Source: a virus
Taxonomy: Duplodnaviria > Heunggongvirae > Uroviricota > Caudoviricetes
Reading direction: 5' to 3' (one strand)
Virus record (IMG/VR): IMGVR_UViG_2718218398_000003
DNA: 45,775 nucleotides
How positions within the stretch are numbered: position 1 is the stretch's first letter; each line of letters starts with the position of its first letter. Position numbers and translations under genes: made by a program. Below are positions 250 to 45,775 of this stretch, in pieces. The notes beneath the pieces were generated by a model. The model was not told the DNA's origin, did not search any database, and saw nothing but the letters and a program-made list of their open reading frames with translations.

Positions 250-350
250 TAACAGAAAATAAACAGGCCGTGATGTGTCGCGGTCTGTTTATCGAATTAA
301 ATGCAGATATAAAAAAACCAACCGCAATAGGTTGGTTTTCTTGGGATTTT

Positions 351-396
351 TGGTCGGCACGAGAGGATTTGAACCTCCGACCCCCGACACCCCATG
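351..396 (-). other. tRNA-Pro 3' fragment (anticodon loop to CCA, 46 nt); probable prophage attachment core (attL)
   Basis: Reverse complement reads CATGGGGTGTCGGGGGTCGGAGGTTCAAATCCTCTCGTGCCGACCA, with T-loop GGTTCAAATCC, 3' acceptor strand and CCA, matching my recollection of E. coli tRNA-Pro(GGG). The upstream 30 nt (397-427) do not supply a complementary 5' acceptor strand (CGGCACG) or a D-arm, so this is not a complete tRNA gene. Confidence 0.7.
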
Positions 397-638: not shown

Positions 639-834
639 ACTTATCTCCTAAGTTTCCGAGCAGCTACATGTTTTTTGTTGATTGTTTTATGTTTGGCGTA
701 AAGTCAACAATTACTTCGCTTTTTGACCATTTTAGCCCATTGGAAATTACGATCATCTTCATGTAACCTTCTAAAACTTACTAAGATTGCAGAAGTTAAA
801 GCAACATAGCTCGTAGTTTCTTAAAGGTGATTTA

Positions 835-1602
835 ATGCCACAGCCGGCGCTAAAAGCGAACGAAATCAGCAGTGAATTAATCGATATTCTTGCGGCTCGG
901 AATACGATATCCGAAATGCAATATTTTCGTTATATCAGAGATATAGAAAAGTTGCGCGACAGCGCATCTGAGGACTATCTCAAAGCGTTGGCTAATGGTG
1001 CTTTTGGGCGTAAAGATACTGCAGTTGCATTCTTTGAAGAAGCATTGAAGCATAACAACCTGATCATTGCTCAAAATTATGTAGTTTATCTCAACGATTA
1101 CGGCAGCTTCCGTGAAGTTGAACAAGTGGTAAATCGATTAGTTGAACGTTATAACTCCCCTACGATGCTGTCCCATGCATGGGAAGCTAACTTGTTCTTG
1201 GGGCGTATTGACAAAGCGCTCTACTATGCTGAGAGATTGATAAGTATGGTAGATGAAAAGGAGGCTGAATTGGTTAAGCACCTCGCAGCCACAGCACTGG
1301 CCCAATCCACGACCTTCAAAAGTGCAACTGGAATTACTGATGAAGAACTACAGGATATTGCAAACCGCATAGTGGATATCATGGCTGACCATAAAGTTAG
1401 TCCTGTTGCTATGTCTTTCTGCTCTATCCCTGAAGAGCGTACGTCATCATATGTCATGGCAGTTAATACTGAAGATTCTGATGTTCTCTCTGATATGAAC
1501 TTGGATATAGCATTTTCTCTTGCAGAAAATGAAAGTTTGATTGGAAAACCCTTCAGCGTATGGTTTGAAGGGCGTTTGGAGGAACCTGCGCGTGCCAGTT
1601 AA
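835..1602 (+). CDS. hypothetical protein (255 aa), first gene of att-proximal cargo operon
   Basis: ATG preceded by AGGTGA at 5-nt spacing; 255 codons; predicted mostly helical; no recognised motif; AT-rich relative to phage core. Confidence 0.55.
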   Translation: MPQPALKANEISSELIDILAARNTISEMQYFRYIRDIEKLRDSASEDYLKALANGAFGRKDTAVAFFEEALKHNNLIIAQNYVVYLNDYGSFREVEQVVNRLVERYNSPTMLSHAWEANLFLGRIDKALYYAERLISMVDEKEAELVKHLAATALAQSTTFKSATGITDEELQDIANRIVDIMADHKVSPVAMSFCSIPEERTSSYVMAVNTEDSDVLSDMNLDIAFSLAENESLIGKPFSVWFEGRLEEPARAS

Positions 1603-1975
1603 TAGTTCCGATTTTATCGCTTTCGCAAAAGATTGTGAAAAGCGTAACGACGAAATTGGTTACAGAAACGCTGTCGCACGTGCGTATTATGGTGCTTATC
1701 ACCACGTACTTCCGTGTTTGACCATGGGGCCGAAAGAAAGTCACCAAGGCCTCATTGACTATCTTGTTAACGATGCTTGGAAGGGTAACGAACCTTTTGA
1801 AAAAAGAGACTTAATTGGTTTGGGGTATGCTCTTCAATCGCTTAAGGATCAGAGAATAGTTTGTGATTACAGACTTAACGACACTATTACGCCAACCCAA
1901 TCAAGCACCGCGATTAAGACTGCAGAGAAATTAATCCAGCGTTGCGCTAATATGACCAAGTCTAAAGCGTCCTAA
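1592..1975 (+). CDS. HEPN-like small protein (about 127 aa), second gene of cargo operon
   Basis: Track ORF 1541..1975 begins at a TTG; an in-frame GTG at 1592 with GGAGG 9 nt upstream overlaps the stop of the upstream gene (1600-1602) and is the more likely start. Sequence ...YRNAVARAYYGAYHHVLPCLTMGPKESHQGLIDYL... resembles classical HEPN-domain signatures (recalled, not searched). Confidence 0.5.
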   Translation: MPVNSSDFIAFAKDCEKRNDEIGYRNAVARAYYGAYHHVLPCLTMGPKESHQGLIDYLVNDAWKGNEPFEKRDLIGLGYALQSLKDQRIVCDYRLNDTITPTQSSTAIKTAEKLIQRCANMTKSKAS

Positions 1976-1980
1976 TCCCC

Positions 1981-2008
1981 AAAATTGGCCTCATTTGAGG
2001 CCAATTTT
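1981..2008. terminator. bidirectional intrinsic terminator
   Basis: AAAA-TTGGCCTCA-tt-TGAGGCCAA-TTTT: perfect 9-bp stem flanked by A and T runs, directly after the stop of the 1975 ORF. Confidence 0.8.
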
Positions 2009-2044
2009 ATTATGCATTGTATTTAATTTCACCGTGCGGAAGCA

Positions 2045-2400
2045 TTACCCAATCATATGGTTCCGCGTATAAATTTTCGTTGATTTCGCGTCGCTGTGGG
2101 CTATGAGCCCTTGTGGTCTACTCCCTGTTTATCAAACAAAATGCAGCTAGTGCGCGTATTTTGTGGAATGTGGGGGCGCAGCTCCATCGTCAAATTATTA
2201 CACAAGCCTAACGAATCACGGGGCAATGAAAAGTATGGCTAAGATAGGCAGGTGCGGATACCTCTTTACTGCGTTTGTTATTACGCTCGGTATACGGTGA
2301 ACGATATACGGGCAGGCAACGTTATCGCGACTGTTATCAATAATACGTTTCAGTTTGTCCTCGAACTACATCACAACCGGCTTGAAAACTAATTACTGGA
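2045..2400 (-). pseudogene. 3' remnant of a tyrosine integrase gene (paralogous to the intact int at 3553-4737)
   Basis: Minus-strand translation ending at stop 2045-2047 gives ...QGLIAHSDAKSTKIYTRNHMIG*, clearly homologous to the intact integrase C-terminus ...QGRMAHSDAKSTKIYTKNHIDW...; nucleotide similarity to 3560-3950 continues to about 2400. No intact ORF of 60 aa or more is listed here, so it is degraded. Confidence 0.65.
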
Positions 2401-2458
2401 TTTTGTGCCTCCATAATCATATGATTTAAAATGTTATTTTATAAAAAAGGAGTTGTAT

Positions 2459-3415
2459 ATGACCAATTTGTATAAGTTTATGGGAGCGGATATAATTGAT
2501 AAATTGATGATGGATGAAACACATATAGGAATAAAATTCTCTCATTTACATGAATATAATGATCCCTATGAGTTTTTCCTTACTATTGATTTTAATCGCG
2601 GTTCTGATGAGTTAGCATTTTACAATGAAATGATTGGCATGGTTACAAAACAACCAGCAACTTGTTTTACGAAAAGCCCTGTGATACCACCTATGTGGGC
2701 ACATTATGCAGGTAATTCTTCTGGTTTTGTAATAGAGATTAATGAGGAGAAGTTTAAAAAGTATTTGGATGAAATCGGCTTCCAGGATCATAGTTCAATA
2801 GCAGATGTTGAATATAAAGATTCTCCAGATACAGGTATTGAAGACATTCTGGCGAGAGCATTTCATATCTGTAAACCTCGTTATATCTACTGGCTACAAT
2901 CCTGTATAATGACAGCCGCATATTTGACAAAACAAACTTGCTGGAGTTATGAGCAGGAACGTCGCGTAATAATTAATGAGAAAGCACTTACTAAACTGAA
3001 TGACAATCTTATGCTCCTTCCGGTACCGATTAATTGTATAACTGGAGTTATAGTTGGGCACAAATCAAATGATTTATTAAAGCAGAAAATTCAATCTTTA
3101 GCTAAAAAGGCTAAATGTAGATATTTCGAAATGGTAATAGGAAAAACAACAACTACACCATTTCTTTTATCTCAAAATCTCAAATCACACCAATTTATTA
3201 ATGGCAATATAATACCTGCATCAAGGCAATGTAAAAAATGTTATGAGCCTTTAAACATGGAAAATAAAGTTTGTGGCTGGTGTGGAATTACTAATCATGA
3301 TGTGAAAATGGCAGAGTACCGTAATTCATTTCGAATGATAGCCAACTATGGTGGGCTGGATAAATATATATCATCCATGAATAAGATTACTGAAGAGTAT
3401 AATAAGGGTAAATAA
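2459..3415 (+). CDS. DUF2971-like protein with C-terminal CxxC...CxxC zinc ribbon (318 aa)
   Basis: ATG at 2459 with AAGGAG 6 nt upstream (track start 2453 is a TTG). N-terminal ...LYKFMGADIIDKLMMDETHIGIKFSHLHEYNDPYEFF... and later ...PMWAHYAGNSSGFVIEI... and ...CWSYEQERRVI... fit my recollection of the DUF2971 family; C-terminus has CKKCYEPLNMENKVCGWCG. Very AT-rich. Confidence 0.6.
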   Translation: MTNLYKFMGADIIDKLMMDETHIGIKFSHLHEYNDPYEFFLTIDFNRGSDELAFYNEMIGMVTKQPATCFTKSPVIPPMWAHYAGNSSGFVIEINEEKFKKYLDEIGFQDHSSIADVEYKDSPDTGIEDILARAFHICKPRYIYWLQSCIMTAAYLTKQTCWSYEQERRVIINEKALTKLNDNLMLLPVPINCITGVIVGHKSNDLLKQKIQSLAKKAKCRYFEMVIGKTTTTPFLLSQNLKSHQFINGNIIPASRQCKKCYEPLNMENKVCGWCGITNHDVKMAEYRNSFRMIANYGGLDKYISSMNKITEEYNKGK

Positions 3416-3552
3416 ATTTTATTAATAAATATTGCTTTCTGGACAAGGGAGAAGTTATGGTAAATGGGCATAGAACTGCCTTTTAAATTAAGCTTTACTC
3501 TATGCCTTAGCAACCGTTATTGTCAGTCAAAATAAAGTGGAGAATTTAATAA

Positions 3553-4737
3553 CTAACCGGTTTTAATTTCTCCATGAGGGACAACAATCCAATCTATATG
3601 ATTTTTAGTATAAATTTTAGTAGATTTCGCATCGCTATGTGCCATTCGTCCCTGCGGATCAATCCCTTGTTTATCAAATAGGTGAGCTGCCAAAGCTCTT
3701 ATTTCATGGAATGTAGGTCTTTGTTCCATTGCTAGATGATTGCATAGTCCGAGTTTGTCTCGCACGGAAGAGAATGACCGACTCAAATAATCTGGTGCAA
3801 CTTGAGTTGGGTGCGAAACCTCTTTACTGCGTTTAACATGCCGTTCTGGGATTCTATGAACGACAAAGGGACTGGCCACATTGTCACGGCTATTGTCAAT
3901 TATCCGTTTCAATTCTTCACCAATTGGTATTGCAACATGTGATGCCTCCTTTTTTTGTACTTTTTGCCTATGGATGTATAGTGTACCATATATGCCATTT
4001 TGTGGTTGTTCGAACCAAACACATCCACATAAACCGTCTTTAGGTTCGCGAATTGAGTAACGGATTCGCGATACTTCGAGTCGTGCATGTGTAGTCTGCA
4101 ATGCTAGGTCCATTGCTGTTCTTAACCATGGTGCAGCGGCCTGCCTGATAGCTATAAAATGCTCGAGTGACAGGCGCCGTCTTTTCTTCTCATCAGTCCT
4201 ACGCATTTTTTTTCTGATGGCCGGGTTATCCTGCATTAGTGATTCATCGACCGCATAAGAGAACAACTTTTTAAGAAAGCTGACCTTTCTGTTCTGCACA
4301 TTTGCGGATGCGCTGGCATGATATTTGTTGATGTAGGCATTAACGTGTTCAAGTTCGATATCGCATGCCGGAACATTTACGAAAAACGCTTTTACGCGTA
4401 GAGCGTCATTTTTCCAGTCATCTAAGGTACTCTGGGAAGGTCGTTCGTCTTCGATAATTCTGGCCATTATGTGATCGACATGTTCAGCAAATGGTTTTGC
4501 TTCTCCGGTGACCCCGCCAGATTCTCTAATAAGATTATCCACTGATGGGTATAATTCTGATCGCATCCTCAGGTTGTACTCTCTGGCGATTGCAACGGCT
4601 ATTGCCCGATCCTTACCTATATTTTTCTTTTTTCCGGTAATAAGTGTGAATTTATAAACACCTCGATCTTTATCAAAAACCAGATAATCAGGAAGATGTC
4701 TGTATTCTTTTTTACGTGGCCTTGCCGCCATGGTCAT
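3553..4737 (-). CDS. int: tyrosine site-specific integrase
   Basis: 394 aa; C-terminal catalytic region with ...HEIRALAAHLF...RMAHSDAKSTKIY... (conserved H, R and Tyr nucleophile of lambda-family integrases); adjacent to excisionase. Confidence 0.93.
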   Translation of the reverse strand: MTMAARPRKKEYRHLPDYLVFDKDRGVYKFTLITGKKKNIGKDRAIAVAIAREYNLRMRSELYPSVDNLIRESGGVTGEAKPFAEHVDHIMARIIEDERPSQSTLDDWKNDALRVKAFFVNVPACDIELEHVNAYINKYHASASANVQNRKVSFLKKLFSYAVDESLMQDNPAIRKKMRRTDEKKRRRLSLEHFIAIRQAAAPWLRTAMDLALQTTHARLEVSRIRYSIREPKDGLCGCVWFEQPQNGIYGTLYIHRQKVQKKEASHVAIPIGEELKRIIDNSRDNVASPFVVHRIPERHVKRSKEVSHPTQVAPDYLSRSFSSVRDKLGLCNHLAMEQRPTFHEIRALAAHLFDKQGIDPQGRMAHSDAKSTKIYTKNHIDWIVVPHGEIKTG

Positions 4738-4943
4738 CCCTCATTTATTAACTTGCGAACAGCTTGACTAACCATTGAGTCGACTCCCCATTTTTCTGTT
4801 TCGCAGACAAAAACAGAACCGTCCACGATACGCCCCATGAGCAGACCGTTCTCGACCCAGCGTTTTATCGTTCGGTTGTCAGGAATTGAGCCATTAGAGA
4901 ATTCACGGCGTCCCCATTGGCTCGCTTTCATTAGTTTTGCCAT
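4734..4943 (-). CDS. xis: excisionase (Xis/AlpA-like)
   Basis: Small basic protein ...RTIKRWVENGLLMGRIVDGSVFV... directly upstream of and overlapping int. Start placed at internal ATG (MAKLMKASQW) with GGAG 8 nt upstream; track ORF extends to 4988. Confidence 0.7.
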   Translation of the reverse strand: MAKLMKASQWGRREFSNGSIPDNRTIKRWVENGLLMGRIVDGSVFVCETEKWGVDSMVSQAVRKLINEG

Positions 4944-5004
4944 GGCTGTTTCTCCACTTAACCCGCTGCACACGGGCAGTAATATCAAATTTCAGTCCTG
5001 ATAA

Positions 5005-5220
5005 TTAATTTTGTTCTCTGGTTGCTACCTGTTTAATTGGCCTGATGCTGTCCAGGAGCAGTCGGCGGCGCGTATTTTCTGCAAAGTGGCGGCGTCCGGT
5101 TTCTTTGTGGTAAAACTCGTTTTCTCCGACGACCCACATCCGCTTTGTCTGGTGCAGTTTTTTTACCTGCGGACCGTTTCGGGTAATAACAATTCCTGTA
5201 TGAGTTTTTATCACGCTCAT
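5005..5220 (-). CDS. small hypothetical phage protein (71 aa)
   Basis: ORF in the early-left operon, same strand as neighbours, abutting the downstream gene; no recognised motif. Confidence 0.45.
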   Translation of the reverse strand: MSVIKTHTGIVITRNGPQVKKLHQTKRMWVVGENEFYHKETGRRHFAENTRRRLLLDSIRPIKQVATREQN

Positions 5221-5579
5221 TTCTTATTCTCCGGTGCTTTCGGCATTACTGCCCAGTGAGTGATATTGACGTTTTCAAGGTCCCCGACCTGAAATGTCCA
5301 CTGCCATTCTCCGGTTTCTTTTTGTCCCCAGGTGTACCAGAGAGAACGCCAGCCAATTAGCCAGCCTTCTCCGTTAGCATCAAATAACAGAACACTTTCA
5401 TTTGCAGGTGGCAGTTCAGCTGACACTGGTATTATTTTGTTTTCCAGTGCCGCACATTTAGCTTCAAGCGCGTCGAATTTACGTACTAGGTACTCAGCAT
5501 TTGTTTCGTTCACTTTCAGATCTCGCGGTACACATTTCCCGCGAAGAAACCCTTCCATTTCGAAAACATTCATGCGCAT
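5217..5579 (-). CDS. DUF551-like phage protein
   Basis: 120 aa; C-terminal ...WQWTFQVGDLENVNITHWAVMPKAPE resembles the DUF551 signature common in lambdoid early-left regions (recalled). Confidence 0.65.
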   Translation of the reverse strand: MRMNVFEMEGFLRGKCVPRDLKVNETNAEYLVRKFDALEAKCAALENKIIPVSAELPPANESVLLFDANGEGWLIGWRSLWYTWGQKETGEWQWTFQVGDLENVNITHWAVMPKAPENKK

Positions 5580-6106
5580 TTGCGTAACTCCGATAACTCG
5601 TTAAAGCGTTCCATAAACATCCCGTAGGCATGGCCCGGTGCCAGTGGAATCACGTTGAACATCTCTGTTGCCGGGATACCTTCCAGTACAGGCCAGAAAG
5701 AGCCATCATCAAGCCCGAGATCGCGGCGTTCGGTTGCCAGCATGATGAGATCGGCATATTTCACGGGCGTACTCATAACTGGGGGTAACCCGTATTTCTC
5801 ACGGATTACGGCGTCTATTTTTTCTTCCATTTGTTTATAGTCAGGAAGAAGGCGTTTCAGTGGTGCGGGAATGTCCTGGCAATACGCTTCTGTTGCATCA
5901 TGCATTAACGCTTCAAAAGCAAATTCCTGCGGCACCAACTGGCTGCAAAGAACCGCATGTTGGGCGACGCTGTAGAAGTGCGAAAGATGACCGGCAAAGC
6001 GACAGATATTTGAAAGGGAAACCGCGATATCGTTAATATCGATGTCGTCTTTATTTATCCTGTCATAATAAAAATGCTTCCCGGAAAAAGTTTTAATAAA
6101 TGACAT
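5570..6106 (-). CDS. HD-domain phosphohydrolase (YfdR-like 5'-nucleotidase family)
   Basis: Contains H...HD metal-binding motif (...VAQHAVLCSQ...ALMHDATEAY...). Start placed at internal ATG (MSFIKTF) with GGAG 7 nt upstream; track ORF begins 27 nt earlier. Confidence 0.75.
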   Translation of the reverse strand: MSFIKTFSGKHFYYDRINKDDIDINDIAVSLSNICRFAGHLSHFYSVAQHAVLCSQLVPQEFAFEALMHDATEAYCQDIPAPLKRLLPDYKQMEEKIDAVIREKYGLPPVMSTPVKYADLIMLATERRDLGLDDGSFWPVLEGIPATEMFNVIPLAPGHAYGMFMERFNELSELRKCA

Positions 6107-39658: not shown

Positions 39659-42600
39659 ATGGCAGTACGGATTTCAGGTGTACTGAAAGATGGCGCAGGT
39701 AAGCCGATACAAAACTGCACCATTCAGCTAAAGGCCAGGCGCAACAGCACCACGGTGGTGGTGAACACGCTGGCCTCAGAAAATCCGGATGAAGCCGGGC
39801 GTTACAGCATGGACGTTGAGTACGGTCAGTACAGCGTTATTCTGTTGGTGGAAGGCTTCCCGCCGTCACATGCCGGGACCATCACCGTGTATGAAGATTC
39901 CCGACCCGGTACGCTGAATGATTTTCTCGGTGCCATGACGGAGGATGATGCCCGTCCTGAGGCACTGCGCCGTTTTGAACTGATGGTGGAAGAGGTGGCG
40001 CGTAACGCGTCTGCGGTGGCACAGAACACGGCAGCCGCGAAGAAGTCAGCCAGCGATGCCAGCACATCAGCCCGTGAGGCGGCAACCCATGCGACTGATG
40101 CTGCAGGCTCAGCACGCGCAGCCAGCACGTCAGCCGGACAGGCCGCGTCGTCGGCTCAGTCAGCGACTTCCAGCGCAGGAACGGCATCAACAAAGGCTAC
40201 TGAAGCATCAAAAAGTGCTGCCGCTGCAGAGTCCTCAAAAAGCGCGGCAGCTACCAGTGCCAGTGCCGCGAAAACGTCAGAAACGAATGCTGCAGCGTCA
40301 CAACAATCAGCAGCCACTTCTGCATCCACCGCAACTACGAAAGCGTCAGAAGCTGCCACCTCAGCCCGGGATGCGGCGGCTTCAAAAGAGGCGGCAAAAT
40401 CATCAGAAACGAACGCATCCTCGAGCGCCAGTAACGCAGCTTCCTCGGCAACAGCGGCAGGAAATTCCGCGAAGGCGGCAAAAACGTCAGAGACGAACGC
40501 CAGGTCTTCTGAAACGGCAGCGGGACAGAGCGCCTCGGCTGCGGCAGGCTCAAAAACAGCGGCTGCGTCGTCTGCCAGTGCAGCGTCAACAAGTGCCGGG
40601 CAGGCCTCAGCCAGTGCCACCGCCGCCGGAAAATCGGCAGAAAGCGCCGCATCGTCTGCTTCAACAGCCACAACGAAGGCTGACGAAGCCACTGAACAGG
40701 CCAGCGCAGCAGCGAGGTCTGCTTCCGCAGCGAAGACATCCGAAACGAACGCGAAAGCGTCGGAAACCAGCGCAGAATCCTCAAAAACGGCTGCCGCATC
40801 GTCAGCCAGTTCGGCGTCGTCATCGGCATCATCTGCGTCTGCTTCAAAAGATGAGGCGACCAGACAGGCGTCAGCAGCGAAGAGCAGCGCCACGACGGCA
40901 TCCACGAAGGCAACAGAGGCGGCAGGCAGTGCGACGGCAGCATCTCAGAGCAAAACTACTGCTGAATCCGCTGCGACCCGTGCGGAAGCTGCTGCTGATC
41001 GTGCTGAAGAGATTGCCGGTGCAGTTGCGATGGAAGACGCAAGCCTTACAACTAAAGGTGTTGTGAAACTTAGCAGTGCTGTTGATAGCACCAGTGAATC
41101 GCTGGCCGCAACGCCAAAAGCAGTTAAAGCAGCCAATGACAATGCGAATAGCAGGGTGCCATCTAACCGAAAAGTTAACGGAAAAGCACTGACTGCGGAT
41201 ATAACATTAACGCCGAAAGATATTGGTACTTTAAATTCAGTAACGATGTCTTTCTCTGGCGGGGCTGGGTGGTTCAAACTGGCTACGGTTACCATGCCAC
41301 AAGCGAGTTCCATCGTTTACATCGCATTGATTGGTGGCGCTGGTTACAACGTCGGTTCCCCACATCAGGCAGGCATTTCAGAACTGGTTCTACGAGCAGG
41401 CAATGGAAACCCCAAAGGAATTACCGGGGCTTTGTGGAAGCGTACAGCCGTCGGATTAACGAATTTCGCCTGGATCAACACATCCGGCGATACATATGAT
41501 ATTTACGTTGAGATTGGCAATTATGCGACGAGTGTAAATATCCATTGGGATTGTACTGCAAATGCGTCAGTTTCTGTTTATACCTCGCCAACATATTCAG
41601 CGAGTAAGCCTTCCAGCGTTACCTATGGTGTTGTTTATACGATGTATAGCTCACATCAGAAACCTACACCATCAGATATTGGAGCACTGCCAACAACCGG
41701 AGGAACAGTTTCAGGTCCGTTGTCTGTTACAGGTGGATTAACTGGTTCATTGAATGGTAATGCAAGTACAGCCACGAAATTGCAGACGGCAAGATCTATC
41801 GGTGGAGTTGTTTTCGACGGTTCTGCAAATATTAACCTTCCAGGTGTAAACACTACGGGTAATCAGAACACCACTGGTAATGCTGCAACTGCTACAAAAC
41901 TTCAGACTGCAAGAAAAATATCCGGTGTTCCATTTGATGGTTCTACTGATATCACTTTAACCGCCGCGCATGTGGCTGCTTTTGCCAGAAGGGCAACGGA
42001 TACATATGCCGATGCGGATGGGGGCGTTCCCTGGAATGCCGAATCAGGCGCTTATAAGGTCACCCGCTCTGGCGACAGCTATATTCTGGTTAACTTCTAT
42101 ACCGGAGTCGGAAGTTGCCGGACCTTGCAGATGAAGGCGCATTACAGAAATGGTGGTCTGTTCTACCGTTCTTCAAGAGACGGTTATGGTTTTGAGGAAG
42201 ACTGGGCAGAAGTTTATACCTCGAAAAATCTTCCACCAGAAAGCTACCCAGTCGGCGCACCAATCCCGTGGCCATCAGATACCGTTCCGTCTGGTTATGC
42301 CCTGATGCAGGGGCAGACTTTTGACAAATCTGCCTACCCGAAACTTGCAGCCGCTTATCCGTCAGGCGTGATCCCTGATATGCGTGGCTGGACGATTAAG
42401 GGCAAGCCCGCCAGTGGTCGTGCCGTATTGTCTCAGGAACAGGACGGCATAAAATCGCATACCCACAGCGCCAGCGCATCCAGTACTGATTTGGGGACGA
42501 AAACCACATCGTCGTTTGATTACGGCACTAAATCCACGAATAACACTGGTGCGCATACCCATAGTGTTAGCGGTACGGCTGCTTCAGCCGGTGCACATAC

Positions 42601-42886
42601 CCATTCGATGACATTTGTTTCAGGTGGTTCCAGTGGTGCTCCGGGAAGTGGATCACCTGATTATTCTAAATACAGTGTTAACACTTCTTCTGCAGGCGCT
42701 CATACGCACTCTGTATCGGGTACTGCTGCAAGCGCAGGTGCACACGCACATACTGTAGGTATTGGTGCGCATACGCACTCGGTTGCGATTGGTTCACATG
42801 GACACACCATCACCGTTAACGCTGCTGGTAACGCGGAAAACACCGTCAAAAACATCGCATTTAACTATATTGTGAGGCTTGCATAA
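39659..42886 (+). CDS. stf: side tail fibre protein (Stf) with long Ala/Ser/Thr-rich repeat region and His-rich C-terminal repeats
   Basis: 1075 aa; N-terminus [30 protein letters not shown]... like lambdoid Stf; central low-complexity repeats (...[11 protein letters not shown]...); C-terminal repeated ...[20 protein letters not shown]... motifs; followed by tfa. Confidence 0.9.
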
Positions 42887-43573: not shown

Positions 43574-44361
43574 TTAAGCATCACGTATTGCCAACCTGAT
43601 TTTTGACTGATACCAATTGGGGCCTTCTGCAATTATTTCTTCCTCAACATGCATGATGGGATGCATTTCAATTTCAGAGTTTTTGACTTTTAGATCTAGT
43701 CCATATTTTTTTGAAATTTGTAAAACTTCATTTTTGAAATCCTTATCTGCGAAAGGTGAAATCCTTATTTCTTCCAACAGATTATTAAGAGATACAGGGA
43801 CTAGTTTTCCCTTTACAGGTGGAGTGTTAAAGGTATTCTCTTGAAAAATAGCTCTAAACTCTTTTTCGTGTTCGAAAGATGGTCTCTTGTTAAAGAATAC
43901 ATCTGATTCTGGATTGTATTGTTTTATCCAGAAATTTTTGACGTATTTTACGTGTTTTAATTGTAGTTTGTTTAGATTATTATTTTCAAGTTGGCTTTGG
44001 AGGTTTTTTTCTTTGATTTTATGACAACGCCTTTAGCGGGGTTTTTACAATACAGCTTCCACATAGCTTCAGATTCATGTTCGTTACAATGCCAGCAACT
44101 TATATATGTCCTCTCGCTTATTTCCTTAAGTGTCTTTAAATTGAATGCCATGAAAGGCTCTAAGTCCATGCCGGCACCATGAGTAGCGCATAGTTTTTCC
44201 TGTGTCTCAATGAATTTTTTATAGCCAGTATGTCCCCAAGCAAATTCACCTTCGAACGGATCTTCAAAATTTTTTGCTGAGCAAAAAAATAAAGCATTTT
44301 GTTCGAGTAACATAGAGAATTTCTCTATGTCAAGATATCGCCATATATACTCAGTGTGCAT
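43574..44361 (-). pseudogene. DUF2971-like gene disrupted by a frameshift in an A7 tract (paralogous in family to 2459-3415)
   Basis: ATG at 44361 with AGGAG 5 nt upstream; N-terminus MHTEYIWRYLDIEKFSMLLEQNALFFCSAKNFEDPFEGEF... and ...CWHCNEHESEAMWKLYCKNPAKGVVIK fit DUF2971. This frame stops at 43972, but a second frame is open without stops from 44032 to 43574 and continues with ...HEKEFRAIF... The frames switch at AAGAAAAAAACC (about 44003-44011). Confidence 0.55.
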
Positions 44362-44572
44362 GATAGCTCCTTGCAATATAACTATTTCTATCTGTTCATT
44401 TGTACTTAAAAAGGATTGAGTAGCCCGAACAGTTCTATCCGTAAATATACCAGATAGAAGAGTTGTACAATAACAAATCCTCCGTATAAGAACCAGCCAT
44501 AATAGTCTGGTTCTTAAGGTTTTTTTGTTCGAGGGGTTTTAACCTACGATTCGTCCCCATATCGGCGATAAA

Positions 44573-45775
44573 TTAGGCTTGTACCAACGCTTCTGTTTCT
44601 GTGAGTGAAATCTGATAGCGTTTTACTGCCTCAGCAAAGGCGTGCGCGGCATCTGCATTTGATACCATATATTCTTCAGTTACCCCTGTTTGAGAATGGA
44701 AAGTAATATTTCCATAAATGCAAATAGGGATTTGGTAGTTGTCTTTAAAACGACGGTCTGGTGAGCCATTCTTATTCGTTTTCGCCCATGTATAACCATC
44801 TATGCGTGAGTCACTGGGAACACCTTCTTCCTCATGGAATCTTAGATATTCTGAACTAATTTGTAATTCGCGTAAATCAATCAGAGCGAATGCTCCATCG
44901 GCTCGTGGTATGACTGCAACTCCAGGATAAAGCAAAATATCGTCTCCATTTGCATTTTCAAACCTCATCGCACGCCCTGTAAATTGAATGAGATCCGTTG
45001 AACTAAAATCAAAGGTAACTGGGTGACGATTAACAGACCGGGTTGCTAATGTTCTTTCAGCAAACTGGTCTGTAGCTTTATCTGCAGTAATATCCCATTT
45101 TTTGACACTCGATTTTAACATATCAAATGCATGGACCATCGCTGCATATGCGCGCTGTGAAGCATCACTGCTCTCGAATGTTATGGCTATTTTTGTGCTG
45201 TCTTCCCATGAAACTAGGCGAGATATCTCAGCTTGGGTTAGGGGGAGTAGTGTCTCAAGTTCTGCGATGCGTCGTTTGTAAAACCAACGGAATAGACTTG
45301 ATTTGCGTCGAGCCAGCTCGCTTTTTTGTTTTGATTCTTCGGCAAGAGCCTCTTGAAGATCTGCTTTTATCTCTGCTCTTTGTTCTCGTGCTTTAGCAAT
45401 CAAATCTCGTAAAGGTAAAAGGGAGGTACTTGTAAGGACTTCTACCGAAGCGCTGGATATTTCATTCATGCCAGCTACAGGCATATATATTTTAGCGTTC
45501 GATGGTGTGTTTTCTGGAGATGACCCAGACCCCAAATGAGGTTCTGTAGGGGCTGGATTTAATGGATTGGTAACTGAGTATCCATCATCATAGGGCAAGG
45601 TAGGTGTAGTATAAGATAAGCCTGTGCCCGGTAATCCGACAGTTGCTCTAACCCCTTTTTTACCAACATTGACAGTTGCGCCAGGCATGCCAATGCTTGC
45701 ACTTATTCCACGCTTGCCAATGTTGAGTCGAACGCCAGGAAATAAAGTAAAGGTTTGTCTGAAACGAAGAGACAT
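44573..45775 (-). CDS. DUF4236-domain protein (400 aa); start codon at the window edge
   Basis: N-terminus MSLRFRQTFTLFPGVRLNIGKRGISASIGMPGATVNVGKKGVRATVGLPGTGLSYTT matches the DUF4236 signature as recalled; remaining 340 aa has a predicted coiled-coil segment and no recognised catalytic motif. Confidence 0.65.
   Translation of the reverse strand: MSLRFRQTFTLFPGVRLNIGKRGISASIGMPGATVNVGKKGVRATVGLPGTGLSYTTPTLPYDDGYSVTNPLNPAPTEPHLGSGSSPENTPSNAKIYMPVAGMNEISSASVEVLTSTSLLPLRDLIAKAREQRAEIKADLQEALAEESKQKSELARRKSSLFRWFYKRRIAELETLLPLTQAEISRLVSWEDSTKIAITFESSDASQRAYAAMVHAFDMLKSSVKKWDITADKATDQFAERTLATRSVNRHPVTFDFSSTDLIQFTGRAMRFENANGDDILLYPGVAVIPRADGAFALIDLRELQISSEYLRFHEEEGVPSDSRIDGYTWAKTNKNGSPDRRFKDNYQIPICIYGNITFHSQTGVTEEYMVSNADAAHAFAEAVKRYQISLTETEALVQA

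What the first reader, a model, noticed from the sequence alone, without database searches (positions are those of the whole stretch)
44573..45775. DUF4236-domain protein of unknown function adjacent to the DUF2971 gene
A 400-aa minus-strand ORF begins with a textbook DUF4236 N-terminal domain followed by a long region with no recognisable motif. It is AT-rich, lies beyond tfa in the accessory arm, and co-localises with a DUF2971-like gene; the two may form one functional unit. The start codon is the last triplet of the window, so upstream regulatory sequence is not visible.
Basis: partly seen in the sequence, partly recalled or inferred. Interest (0 to 1): 0.55.

Follow-up and report, generated by a model that had tools for sequence, protein, structure and literature searches.

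The report
Orphan DUF4236 prophage cargo gene
The last gene of this E. coli prophage window is an intact, strongly conserved gene that travels and survives on its own; it encodes a protein of unknown function with a previously undescribed core domain, it keeps turning up among anti-phage genes in related bacteria, and it does not depend on the broken DUF2971 gene beside it.

Summary
Window 44573-45775 (-) is a real 400-aa gene, identical to RefSeq WP_001351450.1. Residues 3-56 match Pfam DUF4236 (E 7e-21). The rest has no Pfam, NCBIfam, PADLOC or PDB-sequence match. The ATG at the window edge is the true start.

New here:
- Residues 95-400 form a conserved core. The AlphaFold model has pLDDT 96.8: a helical hairpin, an alpha/beta part, and a beta-sandwich that resembles a PH domain only weakly. 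No solved structure matches significantly.
- The family is large (2,908 clusters at 50% identity, at least 583 species) and under purifying selection (dN/dS 0.06-0.15).
- About a third of 149 sampled relatives add a transmembrane helix, usually followed by a bacterial SH3 or peptidoglycan-binding domain. This places the core at the cytoplasmic face of the inner membrane.

The neighbour is a DUF2971 gene (PADLOC PDC-S31-like) inactivated by a 1-nt homopolymer deletion. In E. coli the two genes always co-occur (121 of 121 genomes, at least four sites). Relatives 79-93% identical sit alone, without DUF2971, in other prophage cargo slots, in an ICE beside Gabija-like genes, and in a Yersinia island of restriction and Kiwa genes.

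Best reading: an autonomous single-gene cargo gene, probably phage exclusion or defence acting at the membrane. The function is unproven.

The parts
44573..45775 (-). Complete CDS of the 400-aa DUF4236-domain protein (identical to WP_001351450.1), stop codon included
   Evidence: ORF and translation. Identical annotated CDS in E. coli genomes. True start confirmed by an upstream in-frame stop in L001. dN/dS 0.06-0.15 against orthologues.
45608..45769 (-). Residues 3-56: DUF4236 domain. A very basic (pI 12; 8 K/R, no D/E) Gly-punctuated beta-hairpin meander with alternating hydrophobic and polar residues.
   Evidence: Pfam PF14020 E 7e-21. AF2 predicts five consecutive short strands at low confidence. 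Charge computed. Alternation read from the sequence.
45494..45607 (-). Residues 57-94: variable, acidic, Pro/Ser-rich linker predicted to be disordered
   Evidence: pLDDT 27-40. The least conserved block of alignment A1. dN/dS 0.2-0.5 here against about 0.05-0.13 elsewhere.
45197..45427 (-). Residues 117-193: antiparallel helical hairpin (two long helices) that opens the conserved core
44576..45190 (-). Residues 196-400: alpha/beta subdomain plus a beta-sandwich capped by a C-terminal helix (weakly PH-like). Carries the family-wide invariant polar residues W227, D228, R241, R250, N274, N276, E315, D322, W330, N334, K335, D340, R342, N346, E367 and S372.
   Evidence: AF2 pLDDT 96.8, pTM 0.90 for residues 95-400. 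Invariant columns of A2. Foldseek against the PDB finds nothing at E <= 1e-3, only recurring weak PH-domain hits with probability 0.5-0.69. No Pfam or PDB sequence hit.
44480..44565 (-). Degenerate copy of the tRNA-Pro 3' end plus its terminator hairpin (an attachment-site scar), immediately 3' of the DUF4236 stop codon. It separates this gene from the DUF2971 gene and probably still acts as a weakened terminator.
   Evidence: A 47-nt direct repeat 87% identical to the sequence just 3' of the intact tRNA-Pro. Three-way alignment with the attL copy and the tRNA-Pro end. The 29-nt hairpin core is identical in E. coli cassettes at three other integration sites, and the surrounding spacer is near-identical.
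43574..44376 (-). Neighbouring DUF2971 / PDC-S31-like gene, inactivated here by a 1-nt deletion in a homopolymer (T7 at 44004-44010; intact alleles have T8). Not required by the DUF4236 gene.
   Evidence: Three-frame translation and repair. Pfam DUF2971 and PADLOC PDC-S31 on the repaired protein. Comparison with the intact 246-aa allele in L096.

Best explanation
The gene is an autonomous single-gene accessory cargo gene (a 'moron') of a lambdoid prophage integrated at tRNA-Pro next to yejM.

Shown. It is intact and under strong purifying selection. It is bracketed by its own terminator-like elements and reads convergently to the tail operon. It belongs to a very large, ancient, functionally uncharacterised family. 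The protein has three parts: a highly basic N-terminal DUF4236 beta-meander, a disordered linker, and a ~300-aa conserved core (helical hairpin, alpha/beta subdomain, weakly PH-like beta-sandwich) that is absent from Pfam and has no significant match among solved structures.

Inferred, step 1. About a third of 149 sampled relatives continue after the core with one transmembrane helix, and most of those end in a bacterial SH3 or peptidoglycan-binding domain, which belongs in the periplasm. The core therefore most likely works on the cytoplasmic face of the inner membrane. The E. coli form lacks the anchor and would attach peripherally, for example through the basic amphipathic DUF4236 sheet or the PH-like module, or remain soluble.

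Inferred, step 2. Close relatives sit alone in five or more different prophage, ICE and defence-island cargo slots among known anti-phage systems. The most likely job in the lysogen is therefore stand-alone phage exclusion or abortive-infection defence exerted at the membrane. In this reading the conserved polar pocket of the core senses a ligand or a phage or envelope cue, and the DUF4236 domain and hairpin drive self-assembly or membrane action. It does not need the adjacent DUF2971 gene.
For: Real, selected gene: (dN/dS 0.06-0.15). Intact in 120 of the 121 E. coli genomes that carry it, at >=99% identity.

Family size and conservation: 918 word-index hits, with 65-70% identity even in Rhodobacterales. 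2,908 clusters at 50% identity at E <= 1e-3, of which 401 at <= 1e-30. At least 583 species across many phyla.

Structure: pLDDT 96.8, pTM 0.90. No significant PDB neighbour for the beta part. No sequence match to Pfam or PDB.

Membrane link: 46 of 149 representatives have a predicted transmembrane helix 30-45 residues after the core. 33 of 65 long forms carry SH3_3 and 3 carry PG_binding_1. Pro/Ala/Ser-rich linkers follow the helix, and the tail of P0182 looks TonB-C-like by eye.

Autonomy: neighbour clustering across 80 loci finds no conserved partner. DUF2971 is absent from every non-E. coli locus tested. The immediate neighbours are heterogeneous.

Conflict context of close relatives:
- Yersinia: between a type I R-M system and ScoMcrA-HNH, Mrr and KwaA-KwaB.
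- Serratia: ICE cargo beside an OLD-TOPRIM ATPase plus UvrD helicase, a Gabija-like pair.
- Enterobacter: prophage P-to-nin region, with BstA_C nearby in one of the four places shown, L101.
- Edwardsiella: prophage Q-to-lysis region.
- Klebsiella: prophage end at ssrA.
- E. coli: flanked by the DUF2971/PDC-S31 gene, and in strain CP66-6 also by a PDC-S64-like gene and an S1 peptidase.
Against: There is no experimental or literature evidence of function. DUF4236 appears in a single paper, as a hypothetical protein.

The protein matches no PADLOC model.

Across the distant family the immediate neighbours are mostly housekeeping genes, and only about 5 of 117 look defence-related. No control set was run, so this count neither supports nor excludes enrichment. 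The ancestral role may be cellular.

No catalytic or pore-forming motif was recognised.

The E. coli protein has no transmembrane segment, and the K/R counts flanking the helix in long forms show no positive-inside bias. The topology therefore rests on where SH3b and PG-binding domains normally reside.

The PH-like assignment is weak (Foldseek E 0.05-0.15).

The promoter is not established: promoter-like sites are no more frequent than in shuffled sequence.
Confidence: 0.4

Rival explanations
1. The family has a cellular, envelope-related role unconnected with phage conflict, such as a scaffold or stress sensor on the inner membrane. Prophages and islands carry it only as a passenger or as a lysogenic-conversion fitness factor.
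For: The family is very broad. Its neighbours are mostly housekeeping genes, and it sits as a lone gene between core genes in Paracoccus, Phaeobacter and Cedecea. The variants with a transmembrane helix plus SH3b or PG-binding domain resemble envelope-spanning housekeeping proteins. The protein matches no PADLOC model.
Against: Distribution is patchy: 2.2% of complete E. coli genomes. Horizontal spread is evident, with 93% identity between E. coli and Klebsiella prophages and 65-70% identity to Alphaproteobacteria. Close relatives sit repeatedly in cargo slots among known defence genes. Copies abut tRNA or tmRNA integration sites.
Confidence: 0.3
2. The DUF4236 protein and the DUF2971 protein form one two-gene functional unit.
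For: Co-occurrence and adjacency are perfect in E. coli (121 of 121 genomes). The pair has the same orientation and the same ~200-260 bp spacer, and it occurs as a >=99% identical cassette at tRNA-Pro, tRNA-Thr, icd and yegL sites.
Against: DUF2971 is frameshifted here and decays further in some strains while the DUF4236 gene remains intact. Relatives at 79-93% identity lack DUF2971, and it is absent from every non-E. coli locus tested. An attachment-site scar lies between the genes. The DUF2971 protein Aristaios and the PADLOC model PDC-S31 are single-gene systems. The >=99% identity of the cassette means the E. coli linkage is recent and physical rather than evidence of co-selection.
Confidence: 0.08
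3. The protein serves the phage itself, for example in lysis timing, envelope remodelling at injection or exit, or host takeover, and not the lysogen.
For: A full-length relative at 32% identity sits between the large terminase and downstream late genes in two Microcystis phages. DUF4236 N-terminal domains occur in many lytic phages. In Edwardsiella the gene lies beside the lysis cassette. Relatives carry peptidoglycan-binding domains.
Against: In E. coli, Klebsiella and Edwardsiella the gene reads against the late operon as its own unit. Most family members are not in phages. The gene survives when the prophage is largely deleted, as in strain 65COLEC.
Confidence: 0.12

Closest known systems
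Pfam DUF4236 (PF14020) proteins; PHROG 17982
   Same: Residues 3-56 match PF14020 well above threshold. The whole protein matches PHROG 17982 end to end. RefSeq already names it 'DUF4236 domain-containing protein'.
   Different: Both are labels for unknown function. Pfam models only the 55-aa N-terminal domain. The conserved ~300-aa core has no family model, although 59 of 68 short and 49 of 65 long relatives combine it with DUF4236.
Aristaios (single-gene DUF2971 abortive-infection system, Lactococcus; PMC11381338) and PADLOC candidate PDC-S31
   Same: This is the family of the adjacent gene. It shows that the tfa-to-att arm here holds a defence-type cargo gene, and that DUF2971 proteins act alone.
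   Different: It does not describe the DUF4236 protein itself, which has no similarity to DUF2971 or PDC-S31. The local DUF2971 copy is a pseudogene.
PH-domain-like beta-sandwiches
   Same: The last seven strands plus the capping C-terminal helix have PH-like topology. Foldseek repeatedly lists PH domains: Brag2, PIKE, Sin1, GRK2, Rtt106 and MTMR6.
   Different: All hits are non-significant (E 0.05-0.15; TM-score about 0.18 normalised to the query). There is no sequence similarity. The module is embedded in a larger fold together with the hairpin and alpha/beta part. Ligand or lipid binding is untested.
Zorya ZorAB-type envelope-anchored phage sensors (comparison from general knowledge; not tested here)
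   Same: The long paralogues combine a periplasmic peptidoglycan-binding module, a membrane anchor and a cytoplasmic coiled-coil part. That layout is suited to relaying envelope perturbation to the cytoplasm.
   Different: There is no homology to ZorA or ZorB: one protein instead of a motor complex, no MotAB-like channel, and no ZorC/D-type partner. The E. coli protein lacks both the anchor and the peptidoglycan-binding domain.
Classical lambdoid prophage cargo genes (lambda rexAB, bor, lom; BstA; HK97 gp15-type exclusion genes; comparison from general knowledge)
   Same: AT-rich, self-contained, expressed apart from the late operon, placed in the known cargo slots (tfa-to-att, P-to-nin, Q-to-lysis), and exchangeable between prophages.
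   Different: No sequence or fold relationship to any of them, and no demonstrated phenotype.

Membership tests
Pfam DUF4236 (PF14020) | HMM match above the gathering score (27 bits) | tested here: met
   74.9 bits, E 7.1e-21, residues 3-56 covering profile positions 1-55 of 55.
PHROG 17982 | Full-length match to the family profile | tested here: met
   E 3.2e-193, residues 1-400 against profile positions 1-390 of 390. The family has no annotated function.
   Co-occurrence is 121 of 121 in E. coli. DUF2971 is absent from all non-E. coli loci tested by tblastn and from six Enterobacterales contexts with Pfam-annotated neighbours.
   DUF2971 has a T8-to-T7 frameshift in the window and a further lesion in strain 65COLEC, while the DUF4236 gene stays intact.
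Known or candidate anti-phage systems in PADLOC-DB v2.0.0 | Match to any of the 5,027 models | tested here: not met
   No families at E <= 1 for the DUF4236 protein.
Anti-phage defence genes in general (guilt by association) | Recurrent location in defence islands or mobile-element cargo regions next to known systems | tested here: inconclusive
   Clear for the close Enterobacterales clade: R-M, Mrr and Kiwa; Gabija-like genes; prophage cargo slots. Not evident for the distant family, where about 5 of 117 immediate neighbours look defence-like and no control set was run.
PH-domain-like fold | Seven-stranded beta-sandwich capped by a C-terminal helix, with a significant structural match | tested here: inconclusive
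Secreted or integral membrane protein | Signal peptide or hydrophobic transmembrane segment in the E. coli protein | tested here: not met
   No 19-residue window reaches Kyte-Doolittle 1.6 in P0001. The N-terminus is the basic DUF4236 domain with no hydrophobic core. By contrast, 46 of 149 relatives do carry one transmembrane helix after the core.
Toxin-antitoxin module | A conserved small partner ORF adjacent to the gene | tested here: not met
   No conserved neighbour cluster across 80 loci.

The most novel reading that the evidence does not exclude
The conserved core (helical hairpin plus alpha/beta part plus PH-like sandwich) together with the DUF4236 domain defines a new, very widespread class of single-protein guards at the inner-membrane face. 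The anchored forms read the state of the peptidoglycan or envelope through a periplasmic SH3b or PG-binding domain. Free forms such as this prophage copy trigger phage exclusion or abortive infection through a new, non-enzymatic assembly or membrane mechanism.
Probability: 0.2. Interest if true: 0.7.

Novelty: new variant of a known kind. Interest (0 to 1): 0.42.

Why it matters
If the gene protects against phage on its own, it would add a new single-gene system with a new fold to the defence repertoire. It is present in about 2% of complete E. coli genomes, including clinical lineages, and its close relatives occur across Enterobacterales in prophages, ICEs and defence islands.

It would also give a first functional handle on two things: DUF4236, a domain found in many phages and bacteria, and a large unmodelled core family (about 2,900 clusters at 50% identity). 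The membrane-anchored, peptidoglycan-binding relatives of that family point to a link between envelope state and a cytoplasmic response.

If the gene does nothing against phage, it remains a well-defined orphan family with a high-confidence model. Its conserved residues can be mutated directly.

Tried and rejected
- **Sequence searches of the core.** Pfam on the single protein and on 68 relatives one by one, NCBIfam, PADLOC, and PDB sequences with two profiles. Only coiled-coil noise came back.
- **Literature.** DUF4236, PF14020, IPR025330, PHROG 17982 and WP_001351450 returned one incidental mention.
- **Search for a conserved partner gene.** All-against-all clustering of ORFs from 80 loci found only antisense shadow ORFs of the gene itself and lineage-specific synteny. 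The 1,664-aa helicase found upstream in five loci (four named Azospirillum, one an unclassified Proteobacteria MAG) was rejected as a general partner.
- **DinI association.** DinI appears beside or near the gene in E. coli, K. aerogenes and Enterobacter. I judged this positional, since both are common prophage cargo, because DinI is absent from most contexts.
- **Toxin-antitoxin, structural-protein and decaying-ORF readings.** Rejected on neighbour analysis, gene orientation and dN/dS.
- **Promoter scan.** Promoter-like sites were no more frequent than in shuffled sequence, so no promoter is claimed.
- **Positive-inside test of the long forms' topology.** Uninformative: 1.5 against 1.4 K/R on the two flanks.

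Full report
**1. What is in the sequence**

Window 44573-45775 on the minus strand is a 400-aa ORF whose ATG is the last triplet of the window. The same DNA occurs at 100% identity in E. coli chromosomes, where the product is WP_001351450.1, 'DUF4236 domain-containing protein'.

Reading on through NZ_CP042336 (L001) shows a TAA in frame 15 codons upstream of the ATG. No alternative start codon lies between them, and an AGGGA motif sits about 9 nt upstream, so the start is genuine.

Beyond the window, in order, come:
- about 280 bp of spacer, which by eye contains a palindrome followed by a T-run, probably the terminator of the preceding gene;
- a frameshifted DinI-like gene;
- tRNA-Pro, about 780 nt past the window end;
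- yejM.

An exact copy of the 3' part of tRNA-Pro lies at window ~343-395. The window is therefore essentially a whole lambdoid prophage integrated in tRNA-Pro, and the finding is its last intact gene.

Pfam DUF4236 matches residues 3-56 (E 7e-21), and the full length matches PHROG 17982, function unknown. Nothing else matches in Pfam, NCBIfam, PADLOC or PDB sequences. GC content is 43% for the gene and 35% for the neighbouring segment, against 50.5% for the prophage.

**2. The neighbour**

The 'DUF2971-like gene' is a pseudogene here. A 1-nt deletion in a homopolymer (T7 at 44004-44010; T8 in the intact 246-aa allele of strain AR_0077) splits it into two ORFs. A second lesion is present in strain 65COLEC.

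The repaired protein matches Pfam DUF2971 and PADLOC PDC-S31, a single-gene candidate system. A DUF2971 protein, Aristaios, has been shown to act alone as an abortive-infection system in Lactococcus (PMC11381338).

**3. One unit or two?**

Within E. coli the two genes are inseparable. Each is found in 121 of 5,426 complete genomes, and each copy of the DUF4236 gene has the DUF2971 gene beside it, in a cassette >=99% identical that follows tfa. The cassette occurs at tRNA-Pro/yejM, tRNA-Thr/proA, an icd site and a yegL site. This linkage is recent and physical.

Outside E. coli it disappears:
- Proteins 79-93% identical sit without DUF2971 in Klebsiella, Serratia, Yersinia, Enterobacter, Edwardsiella and Cedecea.
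- A tblastn of the repaired DUF2971 protein against all loci held at that point found it only in the two E. coli loci.

Between the two genes lies a degenerate copy of the tRNA-Pro 3' end with its terminator hairpin. This scar travels with the cassette to the other integration sites. It indicates that the two genes were joined by an old integration or excision event and did not arise as an operon.

The DUF4236 gene is therefore autonomous.

**4. The protein**

A first AlphaFold run on 27 close homologues gave a mediocre model, pLDDT 65.

A search of the 1.84-billion-protein representative library with residues 95-400 found 2,908 clusters at 50% identity at E <= 1e-3, of which 401 at <= 1e-30. 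An alignment of 67 of these with the window protein (A2) gave a model with pLDDT 96.8 and pTM 0.90.

The layout of the protein is:
- Residues 1-56: a Gly-punctuated beta-meander with pI 12 and no acidic residue.
- Residues 57-94: a variable, disordered linker.
- Residues 95-116: a short conserved segment that adds a strand to the fold.
- Residues 117-193: two long antiparallel helices.
- Residues 204-221: a helix.
- Then eleven strands and a 26-residue C-terminal helix.

Polar residues invariant or nearly invariant across about 30%-identical relatives are D228, R241, R250, N274, N276, E315, D322, N334, K335, D340, R342, N346, E367 and S372. They include the signature T-W-x-K-x-N-K-[DN]-G-S-P-D-R-R-F and point to a specific binding or catalytic site.

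Selection is strongly purifying: dN/dS is 0.06-0.15 overall and 0.2-0.5 in the linker only.

**5. Clues from relatives**

Of 149 representatives:
- 84 are about 340-430 aa, like the E. coli protein.
- 46 are longer and have one predicted transmembrane helix 30-45 residues after the core.

Of 65 long forms, 33 end in a bacterial SH3 domain and 3 in PG_binding_1. Pro/Ala/Ser-rich linkers follow the helix, and one tail looks TonB-C-like by eye.

Because these end domains are extracytoplasmic and the N-terminus has no signal sequence, the DUF4236-hairpin-core part should be cytoplasmic and held at the inner membrane. This step is inferred: the positive-inside count was uninformative. The E. coli protein has no hydrophobic segment. 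If it acts at the membrane, it must bind peripherally.

**6. Genomic context**

They include Proteobacteria, Acidobacteriota, Bacteroidota, Verrucomicrobiota, Planctomycetota, Nitrospirota, Chloroflexota, Gemmatimonadota, Myxococcota and a Bifidobacteriaceae MAG. Two Microcystis phages encode a relative at 32% identity.

Clustering all ORFs of 80 loci gave no conserved neighbour. The largest clusters were antisense shadows of the gene itself and lineage-specific synteny, such as a 1,664-aa helicase immediately upstream in five loci, four of them named Azospirillum.

The 117 immediate neighbours are heterogeneous. Most are housekeeping genes, a few are transposases, and about five are defence-like (AbiEii, ThsB, AbiJ, PbeA, a type IV REase). 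No control set was run, so this count is neutral for the family as a whole.

The close Enterobacterales clade is different. The gene sits alone in these places:
- between a type I R-M system and ScoMcrA-HNH, Mrr and KwaA-KwaB in Yersinia;
- beside an OLD-TOPRIM ATPase plus UvrD helicase (a Gabija-like pair) in the cargo of a Serratia conjugative element;
- between P and the nin/RusA region of an Enterobacter prophage, with BstA_C nearby in one of the four places shown;
- between Q and the lysis genes of an Edwardsiella prophage;
- at the ssrA end of Klebsiella prophages.

In E. coli strain CP66-6 the flank also holds a PDC-S64-like gene and an S1 peptidase that resembles protease modules of defence systems. 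Several copies abut tRNA or tmRNA genes.

**7. Interpretation**

Shown:
- an autonomous, selected, horizontally mobile single gene;
- a new conserved core domain;
- membrane-anchored relatives with cell-wall-binding domains;
- repeated residence of close relatives in cargo slots rich in defence genes.

Inferred: the protein works at the cytoplasmic face of the inner membrane and most likely gives the lysogen phage exclusion or abortive-infection protection as a single protein. In this reading the conserved pocket acts as sensor, and the basic DUF4236 sheet with the hairpin acts as the assembly or membrane-acting part.

I put about 0.5 on a role of some kind in phage conflict and about 0.4 on the whole statement. 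The main rival, at about 0.3, is a cellular envelope function merely carried by mobile elements. A function serving the phage itself gets about 0.1, and a two-gene unit with DUF2971 less than 0.1.

**8. Novelty and score**

The gene is already catalogued as a hypothetical DUF4236 protein, and no paper in the searchable library says anything about its function. Its behaviour as a self-contained prophage or island cargo gene is a familiar kind of thing. The protein family, its fold and any mechanism are uncharacterised. I therefore file it as a new variant of a known kind.

Interest is 0.42. It is a solid, testable orphan with suggestive but circumstantial context, not a demonstrated new system.

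Noticed in passing
window 44480-44565 (-); compare L001 11112-11229 and window ~343-395: A degenerate copy of the tRNA-Pro 3' end plus terminator hairpin lies between the DUF4236 and DUF2971 genes. This gives three tRNA-Pro-end copies across the prophage region. The internal one is an old attachment-site scar, and it travels with the cassette to prophages at tRNA-Thr, icd and yegL sites.
   Followed up: yes
window 44004-44010: The DUF2971 gene is inactivated by slippage in a homopolymer (T7 here, T8 in intact alleles). In a spread sample of 25 of the 121 E. coli carriers, about a third had no DUF2971 annotation, and most of those matched the window allele at >=99.8% identity. Whether the tract is phase-variable or simply decaying was not tested.
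   Followed up: partly
window ~343-395 (-): An exact 3' part of tRNA-Pro followed by its native terminator marks the left prophage junction. The integrase candidate is the 394-aa ORF at 3553-4737 (-). The intact tRNA-Pro and yejM lie about 0.8 kb beyond the right end of the window.
   Followed up: partly
L001 10656-10911 (about 280 bp beyond the window end): A frameshifted DinI-like gene sits directly upstream of the DUF4236 gene. Intact DinI genes also lie near the homologue in K. aerogenes (L109/L110) and Enterobacter (L101-L104) prophages. I judged this positional (shared cargo slots), but the recurrence was not analysed statistically.
   Followed up: partly
L002 (strain 65COLEC, NZ_CP070914 1605214-1619590): The prophage is reduced to its integrase-side early genes (through yfdP/Q/R) and a truncated tail-fibre gene plus tfa. 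The DUF4236 gene is retained intact, whereas the DUF2971 gene carries a second lesion.
   Followed up: partly
L013/L014 996-5990; L040, L041, L043, L052, L057 ~700-5700: In five loci from the species scan (four named Azospirillum, one an unclassified Proteobacteria MAG) and in the two contigs that carry P0135, a 1,664-aa helicase (AAA_11/AAA_12 + DUF559 + MTES_1575) ends about 10 bp before the gene for the long form (transmembrane helix plus SH3b). This may be a lineage-specific operon.
   Followed up: no
L011 6001-8982: The PG_binding_1-bearing relative P0182 is followed 37 bp downstream by an Ivy (lysozyme-inhibitor) gene, on an element with RepB/ParB and a serine recombinase. Its own C-terminal ~130 aa look TonB-C-like by eye.
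   Followed up: no
L009 8001-9531; L019; L029: In Paracoccus and related Rhodobacterales the homologue (about 68% identical) is a lone gene wedged between core genes. It ends 190-250 bp from a convergent tRNA-Glu, which looks like a one-gene island or an integration remnant.
   Followed up: partly
L095 6875-9807: In E. coli CP66-6 (cassette at tRNA-Thr/proA) the flank beyond the DUF4236 gene carries two more genes. One is an S1 peptidase that hits the RT-Protease, LmuA and HamA protease modules. The other is PDC-S64-like (E 2e-21). The arm is therefore a small stack of defence candidates.
   Followed up: partly
window 39659-42886 (+): The side tail-fibre gene has a long Ala/Ser/Thr-rich low-complexity N-terminal half. 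It generates several long spurious ORFs in other frames and on the opposite strand (for example 40056-41066 and 40156-40905).
   Followed up: no
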